From the IMG/VR virus record IMGVR_UViG_2639762982_000006: a stretch of DNA of 7,374 nucleotides, one strand, 5' to 3'. The stretch is from a virus. Its lineage: Duplodnaviria > Heunggongvirae > Uroviricota > Caudoviricetes. A program made the position numbers. Of this stretch, positions 1,693-4,600 are shown piece by piece; position 1 is the stretch's first letter, and each line of letters starts with the position of its first letter.

Positions 1693-4600
1693 TTAACAGA
1701 TTCTACGAGTTGTCATTTGTGACAGTATGCTCGCAATCGTAGTGATTACTACCACCAACTGCTAGCTTTCTTCTCTCTAGCTTTTCCTTCGCTTTGCAGT
1801 AAATCTTTACTTCCTGTAGAAATATTTCTATTTGCATCAGCCTCAGACTGAATTACATCTGTCTTAGCTGCTCTCTCCTTCAACTCCTGCTCTATAAAAT
1901 CGTTTTCTCGCTGGACACGAGCCGCTTTTGCTTGCAGTTCGAGTTTCATGCTTTCGAGTTGCAGCTTGCGAAGCTCATCCTCATAAGCTTGATCTCGCTT
2001 CTTGTCATTTGCTAGCTCGGCTTCTCGTTTCGCTCTACGTTCATTTTCTGCAGCAACACGCTGTTTTTCGCGTGCAGCAGCGGCAGATGCTGCTTTTTCT
2101 CTTCTAATACGTTCAGCTTGTGCTTGTTGGCGAATAAGTTCTTTTCTGGCATCCTCAGCTTGCTGCTCTTTAGCTCGCCCTTCATTTTCCGCTTGAGCAA
2201 TAGCAGCAATTTGACTTTGCAACGAGTTAGCCAAGGCAGTGCCTACACTAAACGTAGAAAAGATTAGAAATAAAATAATTTTATTCATAAATTATTTCTT
2301 TTCTGGACAAGTAGCATTTGGCTGAATTCGAGTTTCATTATCTTTAGTTGAAATAAGCACAGCAAGCCCCGTTGTAAACTGGCATGCTTTACCAACTTGA
2401 GTTGAAGTGAACACCTTAGTTCCTTCTTTATAAGTCAGTGAAACACCTTCAACAATTGTTTTATCACTAACCAAAGAACCAGCCGCTGCACCAAGAGCCG
2501 CACCACCAGTACCGCCAGCTACAGCACCCAGTGTCGATGTGCCTTTAACATTATAACCGGCAACGCCCCCAGCAACAGCTCCCAGTACCGCACCAAATGT
2601 CTGTGCCGCTTCTTTATTAGCTTTATTATCAACTTTCACTTTAGCTGGAAGCACAGAGATAATATTGACTGTCTTTGTTTCCTGCTTCGAATTCAATTGA
2701 GCGGTATCATAAACATCGGCAGCATAATCAGCACCGCTAGATTGACACCCAGAAAGAAGAATTGCAGATACAACAAGAGCGCATAAAGTATACTTTTTAG
2801 ACATAAGAATCATCCCAGAAAAACAAAAACCGGCGAGAAGTTACCACGAGAACGGAAAGTAAACAAGAATACTCCCATTGACTTATATCAATTAATCAAC
2901 TTTTTATAAGCTATCCCTAACTTATTGTGTATAGCTGAAAAGTCAGAGACAAGTTCACCATCTGCATTATTTCTTAAGTTAATAGTTTATTGCTAACTTA
3001 ATTTATGTATCGACTATTGATATCCATCTTAAAGTTACAATATCCATCTGCATTATTTTTCATCACAAATAATATATCTATTGCACGACACTAATCTGCT
3101 CTAATAAATTTGTATTTTTAAGTCGCGAATGCTATCTTTTTGCATCATATTGACCTTTTAATCGTTCAGGCTTATAGTTTCGCCGTCGTAGCAAATTCTG
3201 CGACCGGGTTTAGCAGCCTGAATACTTACGCGGACAACCGCAGATTTCCGATATTGCGGTATTTTTGTGTCCGTAAACCACGTTACGCCCGAATTATGGT
3301 GGGGCGTGATGGGGAGGCTTCGGCCTGCTGGTTTCGTAAGTGCCAGTCTGCTAACCCCGTCACGTCCTGCCACCTGTTTAGCAGCGGGTCGCAGGTTGTT
3401 TATCAACTTACGAGGCCGTAACTATGGTTAATGCCAATCCTTGCGCACGCCAAGAATTCATCTGGCGTTTCTATTCCTGCAAAAAACACCACTATCACTT
3501 CGTCATCGCAGCAACAGAAGACGAAGCACGCTCTCAATTGCCTGATGGCCCCTGCATTTTTACTGCCCGTTTTTCAACTAACTCGCGCAATTCACTTAGT
3601 TACTGGAACCTCCCCTTCTCTGCCGACGTTCAGGGGGTTTTATGAAAAAACCTCTCGTCACCCGTAATGACATAGCCGAAGCGATCGCCCTGCATACTGC
3701 CTGTATGCCGACACGGGAGATCCCCGGCGCAATTGCCAACTATTTCATGATAACCAGACGTTTTTATACCCGAACAGATAAGGCTGTGATCAACAGGCTA
3801 CTGATAGCCGAGATCAGGGATTATTTGATTGAACAAGGACGTCTACGTTACGCAACGGTGGCAGCAGAAATGAGAAAGGAGGCACATAGAATGACCAGTA
3901 ATAATTTGAATGTTAAAAAACCAGCATCTGTTGCTTCAGCTACGCCATCACCAGCTGTGAATGTTATCTCCAACACTGGAGACACAATCGACAGCCAGAC
4001 GCTGTTAAAGATGGTCAATGAAGCGCGTAAGTTATGTGGGGAACCAGAGGTTCGGAACAACAAATTCATCAAAAAAATACTCGACGAATTAGAAGGTGAG
4101 GACGGTTACACAAAAAGTGCAACCGTGCCGCCAGGTGGCGGTACGCCTATGGTTGTCATAACCATGACCTACAAACAAGCCCTGCGAGTCGCCGCGCGCG
4201 AGTCAAAAGCAGTCCGCCGTTCGCTGATCGACAAACTGGAAGAATTGCAGCAGGCAAACTCCCCTGCCCCATCGATCCCCCAAACATTACCAGACGCTCT
4301 ACGCCTGGCTGCCGAGTTGGCAGAACAGAAAATGCAGTTGGAACAACAGCTGGTGGCCGCAGCCCCTAAAGTCGATTTTGCCGACCGGGTATCAGCGGCT
4401 AATGGAATCCTGATCGGGAACTTTGCAAAGGTCGTTGGACTTAAGCAAAACGCCCTTTTCTCATGGTTGCGCCAGAACGGCATTCTCATGGCTTTTGGTG
4501 CGCGCAAAAACGTACCGCGCCAACAGTACATCAACGCCGGGTATTTCACGGTGAAAGAAGTGGTGCTGGATGATGAAAATGGCTACCAGATACGGCTGAC

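What the first reader, a model, noticed from the sequence alone, without database searches (positions are those of the whole stretch)
1749..2813. Envelope gene pair (SlyB-like lipoprotein + secreted coiled-coil protein) divergent from immI, candidate exclusion module
Two tightly linked genes 3 bp apart encode a glycine-zipper outer-membrane lipoprotein and a signal-peptide-bearing charged coiled-coil protein. They are divergently transcribed from the immI control region across an AT-rich spacer and look more AT-rich than the ant/kilA genes. Phages often place superinfection-exclusion or envelope-modifying cargo next to immunity regions, and P1 carries sim near here. I cannot assign a function.
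Basis: partly seen in the sequence, partly recalled or inferred. Interest (0 to 1): 0.6.

Follow-up and report, generated by a model that had tools for sequence, protein, structure and literature searches.

The report
Phage copy of host yfgH-yfgI
A P1-type phage-plasmid carries, in the slot where phage P1 keeps its superinfection-exclusion genes (sim), its own diverged copy of a two-gene bacterial outer-membrane module (yfgH-yfgI), so the genes are real accessory cargo of a known kind, but what they do for the phage has never been tested.

Summary
Two minus-strand genes, 2292-2813 and 1749-2288, lie 3 bp apart. The first encodes an outer-membrane lipoprotein, the second a signal-peptide protein predicted as one long helix. 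They face away from c4/icd/ant across a 31% GC spacer.

The pair is not an orphan. Both proteins are 100% identical to phage P7 Upf50.5 and Upf50.0. They are paralogues of the E. coli chromosomal operon yfgH-yfgI (67% and 47% amino-acid identity).

The lipoprotein family is homologous to SlyB over its full length. DUF5384 lies directly downstream of such a lipoprotein in 79 of 80 genomes sampled.

The 1376-bp cassette (1721-3096) replaces P1 simC-simB-simA exactly, between late promoter LPsit and the C1 operator. About a third of roughly 500 P1-like plasmids carry it. The rest carry sim or a third set of exported proteins. Diverged copies also sit beside tail-fibre genes in P2-like prophages.

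Best reading: a prophage-borne YfgHI-type module that remodels the lysogen's outer membrane. Superinfection exclusion is plausible from position but untested.

Novelty: a new member of a known kind. Interest is moderate.

The parts
2292..2813 (-). Outer-membrane lipoprotein gene, a YfgH/SlyB-family glycine-zipper protein identical to P7 Upf50.5. The likely true start is the second ATG at 2804.
   Evidence: Searches show the lipobox LSGC. One search shows 100% identity to the P7, SJ46 and RCS47 proteins. One search gives 67% identity to E. coli YfgH. One search gives a family-profile hit to SlyB 7ojf_A at E 1.1e-9, and a Foldseek hit to SlyB at E 1.6e-7. One search shows invariant C144 and C169 and the conserved zipper.
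1749..2288 (-). Gene for a secreted DUF5384 protein (YfgI family, identical to P7 Upf50.0), predicted as a single helix of about 155 residues.
   Evidence: One search gives PF17358 at 3e-43. predicts one helix with pLDDT 87. One search gives 47% identity to E. coli YfgI. One search finds it directly downstream of the lipoprotein gene in 79 of 80 genomes. One search shows 100% identity to the P7 protein.
1721..3096 (-). The whole exchangeable cassette: two genes plus their own upstream spacer. It replaces P1 simC-simB-simA.
   Evidence: One search shows that homology to P1 ends at 1720 and resumes at 3097. One search gives the P1 annotation. One search finds 168 PLSDB plasmids carrying it, all at 99% identity or more.
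2814..3096 (-). Cassette-specific AT-rich (31% GC) upstream region, presumed to hold the promoter and regulatory sites of the pair.
   Evidence: One search gives the GC content. One search finds no similarity to the upstream regions of non-P1 homologues. One search shows it is partly alignable with the diverged P1-like allele L038.
3052..3080 (-). Weak sigma-70-like promoter match (TAGATA-17-AATAAT) pointing towards the pair, 14 bp from the C1 operator.
   Evidence: One search gives 9 of 12 matches. The number of such sites in the region is no more than shuffles give, so this is a candidate only.
2877..2892 (.). Palindrome ATTGAT-ATAA-GTCAAT, a candidate operator about 65-80 nt upstream of the start codon.
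   Evidence: One search shows it conserved as a perfect palindrome (ATTGATATACATCAAT) in the diverged allele L038. One search lists it as inverted repeat I12.
2958..2972 (-). Copy 1 of a perfect 15-nt direct repeat, AAATAATGCAGATGG.
   Evidence: The chance expectation is about 2.5e-4 for this spacer. It is only partly conserved in L038.
3044..3058 (-). Copy 2 of the 15-nt direct repeat, 86 nt from copy 1.
3095..3111 (+). C1 operator Op(c4), TCTGCTCTAATAAATTT, which forms the right-hand boundary of the cassette.
   Evidence: One search gives the P7 annotation. Searches place the sequence and show that backbone homology resumes at 3097.
1700..1719 (-). Late promoter LPsit (-22 region AAATGACA, -10 TAGAAT), which forms the left-hand boundary of the cassette and drives pmgC-tub.
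   Evidence: Searches give the annotation. One search shows the homology boundary at 1720.

Best explanation
The pair is a mobile, phage-lineage copy of the conserved two-gene envelope module yfgH-yfgI. It is carried as accessory cargo (a moron) in the variable sim slot of a P1-like phage-plasmid.

Proposed mechanism. The lipoprotein is exported, lipidated at Cys23 and sorted to the outer membrane. There, like its homologues SlyB and YfgH, it inserts its glycine-zipper helical hairpin and oligomerises into rings. These rings enclose and stabilise outer-membrane proteins and lipid patches. The DUF5384 protein is secreted into the periplasm as a helical rod of about 23 nm and acts as the lipoprotein's obligate partner. 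The pair is transcribed from its own promoter in the AT-rich spacer, independently of the late operon. The lysogen therefore gains a second, diverged YfgHI system that makes its outer membrane more robust, which is lysogenic conversion.

What is shown: gene structure, export signals, homology to YfgH/SlyB and DUF5384, strict gene pairing, cassette boundaries, accessory distribution and purifying selection.

What is inferred: ring formation, partnership of the two proteins, expression in the prophage state and the fitness benefit. An effect on incoming phages could be a by-product, as it is for TraT, but it is not required by this reading.
For: The proteins are 67% and 47% identical to E. coli YfgH and YfgI. 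The chromosomal pair lies between pdeF/yfgG and guaA in 5420 of 5426 E. coli genomes. The family profile hits SlyB over nearly its whole length at E 1.1e-9, and Foldseek gives SlyB as the only significant PDB match.

Published work on YfgH shows that deletion sensitises cells to SDS/EDTA and to depletion of LptD or BamA. [quoted passage not shown]

The lipoprotein-then-DUF5384 order is kept in 79 of 80 genomes, from Enterobacterales to Pseudomonas and some Alphaproteobacteria. dN/dS is 0.04-0.11.

Diverged copies are also cargo beside the tail-fibre genes of P2-like prophages at three chromosomal sites: yecD, tor and ompW.

Among P1-like plasmids, Salmonella hosts are enriched for this cassette: 22 of 33 against 146 of 476, Fisher p 6e-5. 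S. Typhimurium is reported to lack yfgHI orthologues (PMC11619404), so the cassette may supply a missing function. Clonal sampling is not controlled in this comparison.
Against: There is no experiment on the phage copy. Every E. coli already has yfgHI, so a simple extra dose is an odd thing for a phage lineage to maintain over saturated synonymous divergence. The slot it occupies is the one that holds a proven exclusion gene in P1. The AlphaFold model of the lipoprotein is weak overall (pLDDT 55, zipper below 50). No convincing promoter was found, so expression in lysogens is assumed.
Confidence: 0.45

Rival explanations
1. The pair is a dedicated superinfection-exclusion module, a functional replacement for Sim. 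The phage-encoded SlyB-like rings, together with the periplasmic rod, cage or block outer-membrane components or the periplasmic path that incoming phage tails and DNA need. Adsorbed P1-like or other phages then fail to deliver their DNA.
For: It is an exact allelic replacement of simCBA between LPsit and Op(c4). All three alleles of the locus encode signal-peptide proteins. The same hotspot collects other defence-like cargo: a DUF4760 protein and a DUF559/REase-like ORF with weak PADLOC hits. In P2-like prophages the pair sits next to tail-fibre genes at the prophage end. From my own recollection, not checked here, cor occupies a comparable position in lambdoid phages. Two P1-like backbones that are 98% identical carry alleles only 77% identical, with saturated dS, which indicates repeated cassette exchange. 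YfgH binds BamA, LptD and OmpA/C/F (bioRxiv 10.64898/2025.12.22.696046), which I recall as known phage receptors. There is a sub-threshold resemblance to TraT, annotated as a complement-resistance protein of the conjugative transfer operon and reported to block phage adsorption (PMC10433841). Sim itself gives no PADLOC hit, so the negative PADLOC result for the pair says little.
Against: There is no sequence similarity to SimA/B/C and no PADLOC match. The closest relatives are housekeeping chromosomal genes present across Proteobacteria. The cassette is 99% or more identical across 168 plasmids and under strong purifying selection, with no whole-gene sign of an arms race. In related P2-like prophages the same slot holds ash/Rha regulators or nothing, not defence genes. 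No experiment exists.
Confidence: 0.3
2. The pair serves the phage's own lytic cycle. For example, it could hold the outer membrane together until spanins act and so tune lysis timing or burst, or it could protect the cell during DNA ejection and assembly.
For: The pair lies directly upstream of, and in the same orientation as, the late operon pmgC-tub-pmgB-sit, with no intrinsic terminator between them. A lipoprotein plus a periplasmic helical protein loosely recalls the two-component spanins.
Against: The pair is absent from two thirds of P1-like elements, including P1 itself, so it is dispensable for lytic growth. It lies upstream of the late promoter LPsit, not downstream. It is not in the lysis cassette. 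DUF5384 has a cleavable signal peptide rather than an inner-membrane anchor. The PHROG spanin hit (E 0.038) covers only the signal and lipobox region. The cassette is retained in pSvP1_F, where an IS91 element has broken the P1 backbone.
Confidence: 0.08
3. The pair is neutral hitch-hiking cargo. It is a captured host-type operon with no selected role on the phage, kept by linkage to the immunity region.
For: The locus is a known low-GC recombination hotspot (PMC9603915, PMC6906374). The spacer is AT-rich, and such DNA is typically silenced by H-NS (my own general knowledge, not tested here).
Against: Both genes are intact in 166 of 168 plasmids at 99% identity or more. dN/dS is 0.04-0.11 across mobile alleles whose synonymous sites are saturated. 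The pair has been acquired independently by two phage types and in two alleles within P1-like elements.
Confidence: 0.05

Closest known systems
E. coli YfgH-YfgI (chromosomal operon next to guaA; S. Typhi srgI-srgL)
   Same: The gene order is the same (lipoprotein, then DUF5384 protein), with a short intergenic gap and similar lengths. Identity is 67% and 47%. Both have a lipobox, a glycine-zipper hairpin, two conserved Cys residues and the conserved C-terminal half of DUF5384.
   Different: This pair is on a phage-plasmid, not next to guaA. It has its own unrelated AT-rich upstream region. It belongs to a separate mobile clade in a neighbour-joining tree without support values. YfgH has experimental data and the phage copy has none. 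No function beyond a nalidixic-acid-sensitive mutant is published for YfgI (PMC3536626).
SlyB (PhoPQ-regulated outer-membrane lipoprotein; cryo-EM entries 7OJF/7OJG)
   Same: Homology runs over the full length: profile E 1.1e-9, Foldseek TM 0.73 and 24% identity. The topology is the same, with a beta strand, a glycine-zipper helical hairpin and then a beta domain.
   Different: slyB is monocistronic in E. coli as far as I recall (not checked here), whereas this lipoprotein always has a DUF5384 partner. The YfgH preprint reports different suppressors, clsA for yfgH and Mla for slyB. Ring formation by this protein has not been shown.
P1 Sim (simA-simB-simC), superinfection exclusion
   Same: Same locus, same orientation and same boundaries (LPsit and Op(c4)). 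Both encode signal-peptide proteins and both are low-GC accessory cargo.
   Different: There is no sequence similarity. Sim has three genes and no lipoprotein. Sim has an experimental exclusion phenotype (Kliem and Dreiseikelmann 1989, cited in PMC8546580), and this pair has none.
TraT (F-plasmid lipoprotein; surface exclusion and serum resistance as I recall)
   Same: Both are lipoproteins carried by a mobile element with a Gly/Ala-rich zipper segment. Pfam TraT scores E 7e-5, and hhalign gives 86% probability over 72 columns.
   Different: The Pfam score is below the gathering threshold (23.1 against 31 bits). The resemblance is confined to the zipper and the stretch after it. TraT is 243 aa, has no DUF5384 partner and lies in the tra operon.
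Cor and Llp receptor-blocking lipoproteins, and Rz/Rz1 spanins
   Same: These are small phage-encoded outer-membrane lipoproteins. Spanins also pair a lipoprotein with a periplasmic helical protein.
   Different: The PHROG hits (Cor E 0.022, Rz-like E 0.038) cover only the signal peptide and lipobox region. There is no homology in the mature parts, the sizes differ, and the gene context is neither a lysis cassette nor an embedded gene pair.

Membership tests
SlyB/YfgH family of glycine-zipper outer-membrane lipoproteins | Lipoprotein signal peptide with a lipobox Cys and outer-membrane sorting (no Asp at +2) | tested here: met
   The lipobox is L-S-G-C23 followed by Gln-Ser. C23 is invariant in 40 homologues.
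SlyB/YfgH family of glycine-zipper outer-membrane lipoproteins | Two-helix Gly/Ala zipper hairpin inserted in a beta domain | tested here: met
   Residues 71-116 contain 15 overlapping [GA]xxx[GA] motifs. AlphaFold2 predicts helices 64-87 and 94-114 flanked by strands, although the zipper pLDDT is below 50. Pfam Gly-zipper 2TM scores E 0.0023, below threshold for this sequence, but is precomputed as present in many homologues.
SlyB/YfgH family of glycine-zipper outer-membrane lipoproteins | Full-length sequence and fold homology to SlyB | tested here: met
   The family profile hits 7ojf_A at E 1.1e-9, profile positions 9-162 against residues 6-153 of 155. Foldseek gives E 1.6e-7, probability 1.00 and TMt 0.73.
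SlyB/YfgH family of glycine-zipper outer-membrane lipoproteins | Oligomeric rings in the outer membrane that enclose outer-membrane proteins and lipids | not testable with these tools
   No multimer modelling or biochemistry was available. For YfgH itself the rings are only an AlphaFold3 prediction (bioRxiv 10.64898/2025.12.22.696046).
yfgH-yfgI two-gene module | DUF5384 gene immediately downstream of the lipoprotein gene on the same strand | tested here: met
   The gap is 3 bp in the window. The same arrangement holds in 79 of 80 genome loci, and the one exception is a 336-bp contig.
yfgH-yfgI two-gene module | Orthologous chromosomal position between pdeF/yfgG and guaA | tested here: not met
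   The pair lies between pmgC and the immI region of a P1-like plasmid. It is therefore a paralogue or xenologue, not the orthologue.
Pfam PF17358 (DUF5384) | Score above the Pfam gathering threshold over the whole domain | tested here: met
   147.8 bits against a cut-off of 25, E 3e-43, profile positions 4-145 of 145.
TraT (PF05818) | Score above the Pfam gathering threshold, or homology outside the zipper | tested here: not met
   23.1 bits against a cut-off of 31. hhalign gives 86% probability but only 72 columns centred on the zipper. BLASTP matches only the signal peptide.
P1 Sim superinfection-exclusion system | Sequence homology to SimC, SimB or SimA | tested here: not met
   BLASTP E values are 0.29 or worse, and there is no DNA similarity between the cassettes.
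P1 Sim superinfection-exclusion system | Same genomic slot and exported products | tested here: met
   The boundaries are at LPsit and Op(c4). SimA, SimB, SimC and both proteins of this pair have signal peptides.
P1 Sim superinfection-exclusion system | Blocks infection by P1 after adsorption when expressed | not testable with these tools
   This needs plating and DNA-entry assays. No publication was found.
Known anti-phage defence systems (PADLOC-DB 2.0) | Match to any defence-protein model | tested here: not met
   Neither protein gives a hit at E up to 1. SimB and SimC also give none, so the test has little power for exclusion genes.
Two-component spanins (Rz/Rz1) | Inner-membrane-anchored i-spanin plus small o-spanin lipoprotein within the lysis cassette | tested here: not met
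   DUF5384 has a cleavable A-L-A signal peptide and no membrane anchor. The pair is not near lysis genes. The PHROG Rz-like hit (E 0.038) covers residues 10-67 only.

The most novel reading that the evidence does not exclude
The phage-borne YfgHI-like pair could be a new class of superinfection-exclusion or envelope-immunity system. A SlyB-type ring lipoprotein and a periplasm-spanning helical rod would cage outer-membrane receptors or conduits (BamA, LptD, porins, LPS patches). Incoming phage tails or DNA could then not cross the envelope. This system would be interchangeable with Sim at one hotspot of P1-like phage-plasmids and would also be used by P2-like prophages. A corollary is that the chromosomal yfgHI module, and YfgI in particular, also influences phage entry.
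Probability: 0.25. Interest if true: 0.75.

Novelty: new member of a known kind. Interest (0 to 1): 0.45.

Why it matters
Three things would follow if the reading holds.

1. It would give a function-level hypothesis to genes left as 'Upf' in the P7 annotation. These genes are present in about a third of the P1-like phage-plasmids found in E. coli and Salmonella, some of which are reported to carry resistance genes such as blaCTX-M-55 (PMC9603915).

2. YfgI/DUF5384 is a strictly linked partner of YfgH in 79 of 80 genomes, yet the term yfgI does not occur in the main text of the current YfgH study. Any model of YfgH function should include it.

3. The sim locus offers three interchangeable sets of exported proteins on near-identical backbones. 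This is a natural experiment for asking how temperate phages modify the envelope of their lysogens. The test needs only one cloned 1.4-kb fragment.

Tried and rejected
- PADLOC gave no hit for either protein. This is uninformative, because SimB and SimC also give none.
- NCBIfam gave only noise.
- PHROG 1277 labels the lipoprotein family 'DNA methyltransferase'. I rejected this as an annotation error: the protein is a 170-aa lipoprotein homologous to SlyB.
- My first guess from memory was that the K-12 homologues were yfjS/yfjT of prophage CP4-57. This was wrong. Genome context shows they are yfgH/yfgI.
- The phage TL-2011b 'copy' and about 55 IMG/VR contigs are not phage-borne copies. They are host yfgHI swallowed by prophage boundary calls next to guaA.
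- Searches of PDB sequences and Pfam with DUF5384 found nothing. A fold search with a single helix was judged meaningless and not run.
- Membership of the TraT family was rejected.
- The related P2-like prophage slot was inspected for defence genes. It holds ash/Rha regulators or nothing, so it gives no support.
- Literature searches for Upf50.x, DUF5384 and sim alternatives found no functional study.
- The paper on urinary plasmids and phage permissivity (PMC10433841) turned out to be irrelevant to this cassette.
- The P1 genome paper (PMC523184) is not held in the library.
- The promoter scan found no more sites than shuffled sequence gives.
- Paired-alignment or multimer modelling of the two proteins could not be submitted under the tool's input rules.
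Full report
WHAT THE WINDOW IS. The window is a piece of a P1-like phage-plasmid (genus Punavirus). Positions 371-7180 match P1-like records at 98-99% identity. The gene order is pmgB' (truncated), tub (480-1091, -), pmgC (1102-1668, -), the gene pair in question, an AT-rich spacer, the C1 operator Op(c4), c4 RNA, icd, ant1/ant2 (3642-4685), kilA (4849-5649) and repL (5679-6524). Rfam confirms the c4-a1b1 element at 3172-3224 and C4 RNA at 3292-3377. Over the two stretches searched (1-480 and 1721-3096) the window is 100% identical to plasmid pSvP1_F of E. 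coli SvETEC, NZ_MN510446.1. That plasmid is a 139-kb P1-like/F cointegrate.

CHECK OF THE OBSERVATION. Two minus-strand ORFs, 2292-2813 (173 aa) and 1749-2288 (179 aa), are separated by 3 bases.
- The first protein has a lipobox, L-S-G-C23. The residues after the Cys are Gln-Ser, so by the +2 rule it should go to the outer membrane.
- Homologues and RefSeq start at the second ATG (window 2804).
- The second protein has a type-I signal peptide ending A-L-A. Its mature part is 158 aa, 41% charged and Ala-rich.
- GC content is 0.42 and 0.435 for the genes and 0.31 for the spacer, against 0.495 for ant and 0.50 for kilA.

'Coiled coil' is the one part not shown. AlphaFold2 gives one uninterrupted helix for residues 4-178 (mean pLDDT 87), and its oligomeric state is unknown.

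WHAT THE GENES ARE. Both proteins are 100% identical to Upf50.5 and Upf50.0 of phage P7, and to the corresponding proteins of SJ46, RCS47, phi456 and others. The second protein is a full-length member of Pfam DUF5384 (3e-43).

Genome context of the commonest homologues places them between pdeF/yfgG and guaA in E. coli and Citrobacter. RefSeq names them yfgH and yfgI, and 5420 of 5426 complete E. coli genomes have this chromosomal copy at about 69% nucleotide identity. Protein identity to the E. coli proteins is 67% for YfgH and 47% for YfgI.

A profile of the lipoprotein family hits SlyB (7ojf_A) over almost its whole length at E 1.1e-9. The AlphaFold model is weak overall (pLDDT 55). Its beta domain scores 70-80, and its strand, helical hairpin and beta-domain topology is clear. 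SlyB is its only significant PDB match (E 1.6e-7, TMt 0.73). So 'SlyB-like' is correct.

The resemblance to TraT is below Pfam's threshold (23.1 against 31 bits). In a profile comparison it is limited to 72 columns around the zipper (86% probability). I do not file the protein under TraT.

THE TWO GENES ARE ONE UNIT. I sampled 80 genomes that encode a DUF5384 protein. They cover Enterobacterales, Pasteurellaceae, Vibrionaceae, Aeromonadales, many Pseudomonas, Nitrosomonas and some Alphaproteobacteria. A YfgH-like ORF lies immediately upstream on the same strand in 79 of them. The exception is a 336-bp contig that could not contain it. The DUF5384 family is small (313 clusters at 50% identity) and always a stand-alone protein of about 170-200 aa. 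The C-terminal half of DUF5384 is conserved, while the N-terminal half is a variable Ala/Glu/Arg/Lys-rich stretch. Such strict linkage argues that the periplasmic protein is an obligate partner of the lipoprotein. The term yfgI does not occur in the main text of the recent YfgH study.

WHERE IT SITS IN THE PHAGE. Homology to reference P1 stops at window 1720 and resumes at 3097. In P1 the intervening 1513 bp hold simC, simB, simA and their promoters. In the window the 1376 bp hold the pair and its own spacer. The left edge is just past the late promoter LPsit. The right edge is the C1 operator Op(c4), at 3095-3111. The pair is therefore an allelic replacement of the superinfection-exclusion operon sim, not merely a neighbour of it.

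In PLSDB, about 500 plasmids carry the adjacent tub-pmgC backbone.
- 168 carry this cassette, all at 99% identity or more.
- 137 carry the full sim cassette.
- About 160 match only the simA end of the sim cassette. One example inspected (L101) carries a third allele: an SH3-domain protein plus two signal-peptide proteins. One of these shows that P1 simA is a truncated remnant.
- Compound alleles exist. One has the pair plus a DUF4760 membrane protein (L102). Another has a diverged allele of the pair plus a DUF559/REase-like ORF (L038).

The literature already lists simABC as one of eight variable, low-GC regions of P1-like phage-plasmids (PMC9603915, PMC6906374).

A MOBILE LINEAGE. The L038 allele is only 77% identical in DNA to the window's, while the flanking P1 backbone is 98% identical. 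Synonymous sites between the two alleles are saturated (dS 1.5-3), and dN/dS is 0.04-0.06. This indicates cassette exchange from a deep gene pool under strong purifying selection.

Diverged copies (about 70% amino-acid identity) also lie at the tail-fibre end of P2-like-tail prophages. These prophages are integrated at three different chromosomal sites: yecD, tor and ompW. At the ompW site the pair is clearly inside the prophage, between an ORF6N gene and the tail-fibre genes.

In a neighbour-joining tree of the concatenated proteins (no support values), three sets of copies cluster together. They are the P1-like copies, a genomic-island copy and the yecD-prophage copies. The cluster lies next to Xenorhabdus and apart from the guaA-linked Enterobacteriaceae clade.

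Two apparent phage copies are artefacts. Phage TL-2011b and about 55 IMG/VR contigs simply include host yfgHI, because a prophage integrates between yfgI and guaA.

WHAT IS KNOWN ABOUT THE HOMOLOGUES.
- YfgH is an outer-membrane lipoprotein. Its loss sensitises E. coli to SDS/EDTA and vancomycin and is synthetically sick with lptD or bamA depletion.
- Overexpression of YfgH rescues those depletions. [quoted passage not shown]
- SlyB-like rings are predicted for YfgH but not shown (bioRxiv 10.64898/2025.12.22.696046; PMC3219608).
- A yfgI mutant is sensitive to nalidixic acid (PMC3536626).
- In S. Typhi the orthologues srgI-srgL are induced by SdiA and AHL, and S. Typhimurium lacks them (PMC11619404).
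- No paper mentions DUF5384, and a search for Upf50.0/Upf50.5 returned no paper using those names.

HOW IT MOST LIKELY WORKS. Shown here: export signals, family membership, gene pairing, cassette structure, accessory distribution and selection. Inferred: everything below.

I think the lipoprotein reaches the outer membrane and forms SlyB/YfgH-type zipper rings around outer-membrane proteins and lipid patches. The DUF5384 helix, at 155 residues x 0.15 nm, is about 23 nm long, which I take to be comparable with the width of the periplasm. I think it works as the periplasmic partner of those rings. The cassette brings its own 283-bp, 31% GC upstream region. That region is unrelated to the upstream DNA of chromosomal homologues and lies upstream of the late promoter. 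Expression is therefore probably from a sigma-70 promoter in the prophage state.

Only weak promoter matches were found. Two sequence features are candidates for regulatory sites:
- a palindrome at 2877-2892, which is conserved in the diverged L038 allele;
- a perfect 15-nt direct repeat at 2958-2972 and 3044-3058, with a chance expectation of about 2.5e-4.

The benefit selected is uncertain. With 67% identity to YfgH, the parsimonious reading is lysogenic conversion towards a more robust outer membrane (confidence 0.45). The enrichment of the cassette in Salmonella P1-like plasmids fits this reading: 22 of 33 against 146 of 476, p 6e-5, with clonality uncontrolled.

The main rival is a Sim-like exclusion function (0.30). 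Its support is the exact slot, the theme of exported proteins in all three alleles, the defence-like neighbours in compound alleles, and the moron position next to tail-fibre genes in other prophages. The two readings are not mutually exclusive. As I recall, TraT both excludes and protects. A lytic-cycle role (0.08) and neutral cargo (0.05) are unlikely, for the reasons given under the rival explanations.

NOVELTY AND VERDICT. The genes themselves are annotated in the P7 record, and the family is known (YfgH/SlyB plus DUF5384). This is a new member of a known kind.

I did not find the following stated in any paper:
- the exact allelic relation to sim;
- the existence of at least three exported-protein alleles at that slot;
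- the mobile lineage shared by two phage types;
- the near-universal YfgH-YfgI pairing.

The function on the phage is open and cheaply testable. Interest is 0.45. The most novel reading not excluded is a new ring-plus-rod exclusion system, with a probability of about 0.25.

Noticed in passing
window 1-377 (and 371-479): The left end is the 3' part of an IS91-family transposase gene. It cuts pmgB, of which only about 95 nt remain. The P1 backbone is therefore broken here. Over 1-480 and 1721-3096 the window is 100% identical to the P1-like/F cointegrate pSvP1_F (NZ_MN510446.1).
   Followed up: partly
window 6833-7157: A hok/sok toxin-antitoxin locus lies downstream of repL, where P1 has rlfA/rlfB. 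It consists of sok RNA (Rfam RF01794, 114.9 bits) at 6833-7007 and a 51-aa Hok toxin (PF01848, 1.3e-21) at 7002-7157.
   Followed up: partly
window 6494-6820: A 108-aa ORF with two hydrophobic segments overlaps the end of repL and has no family match. RefSeq annotates a shorter 82-aa hypothetical protein here.
   Followed up: no
L101 1494-3640 (NZ_CP057567.1) and L002 4134-4292 (P1 simA): A third allele of the sim slot encodes an SH3-domain protein (352 aa) and two signal-peptide proteins (168 and 163 aa). About 160 P1-like plasmids match only the simA end of the sim cassette and may carry this allele; one example was inspected. P1 simA (52 aa) is the truncated N-terminus of the 163-aa gene. 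L102 keeps a 56-aa remnant of the 168-aa gene.
   Followed up: partly
L038 6856-8115 and L102 3637-4458: Extra cargo lies in the same hotspot next to the pair. One item is a 419-aa DUF559/REase_MTES_1575-like protein with weak PADLOC hits to nuclease domains. The other is a 273-aa DUF4760 membrane protein.
   Followed up: partly
window 2292-2813 as annotated in other records: Annotation errors are propagating. PHROG 1277 and several RefSeq phage records (NC_050152, NC_031129, NC_042128, NC_019445) call this lipoprotein a 'DNA methyltransferase'. Phage phi456 calls the pair 'minor tail protein' and 'tail tip protein'.
   Followed up: yes
L020 (phage TL-2011b, JQ011317) and L044-L100 (IMG/VR): A prophage integrates between yfgI and guaA. 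The TL-2011b record and about 55 IMG/VR 'viral' contigs therefore end in host yfgG-yfgH-yfgI, which mimics phage carriage of the pair.
   Followed up: yes
L103-L182: The YfgH-like lipoprotein and DUF5384 genes are adjacent in 79 of 80 genomes across Gammaproteobacteria and beyond. The term yfgI does not occur in the main text of the YfgH functional study.
   Followed up: yes
window 4038-4163: A stretch of about 125 bp inside ant1, upstream of the ant2 start, does not align with P7 at megablast level, although the flanks are 98-99% identical. It may be a variable segment of the antirepressor.
   Followed up: no
window 1669-1715: An 18-nt inverted repeat (89% complementary, 11-nt loop) spans the late promoter LPsit just upstream of pmgC. 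It has no T-run, so it is not an intrinsic terminator for transcripts leaving the pair.
   Followed up: no
BFVD hits to model m5d73d2168a34: A few other phages encode SlyB-like or Gly-zipper lipoproteins, for example Pseudomonas jumbo phage Phabio and the unnamed entries A0A345MMF3 and A0A345MMF4. No description beyond the entry name, where there was one, came back with any of them.
   Followed up: no
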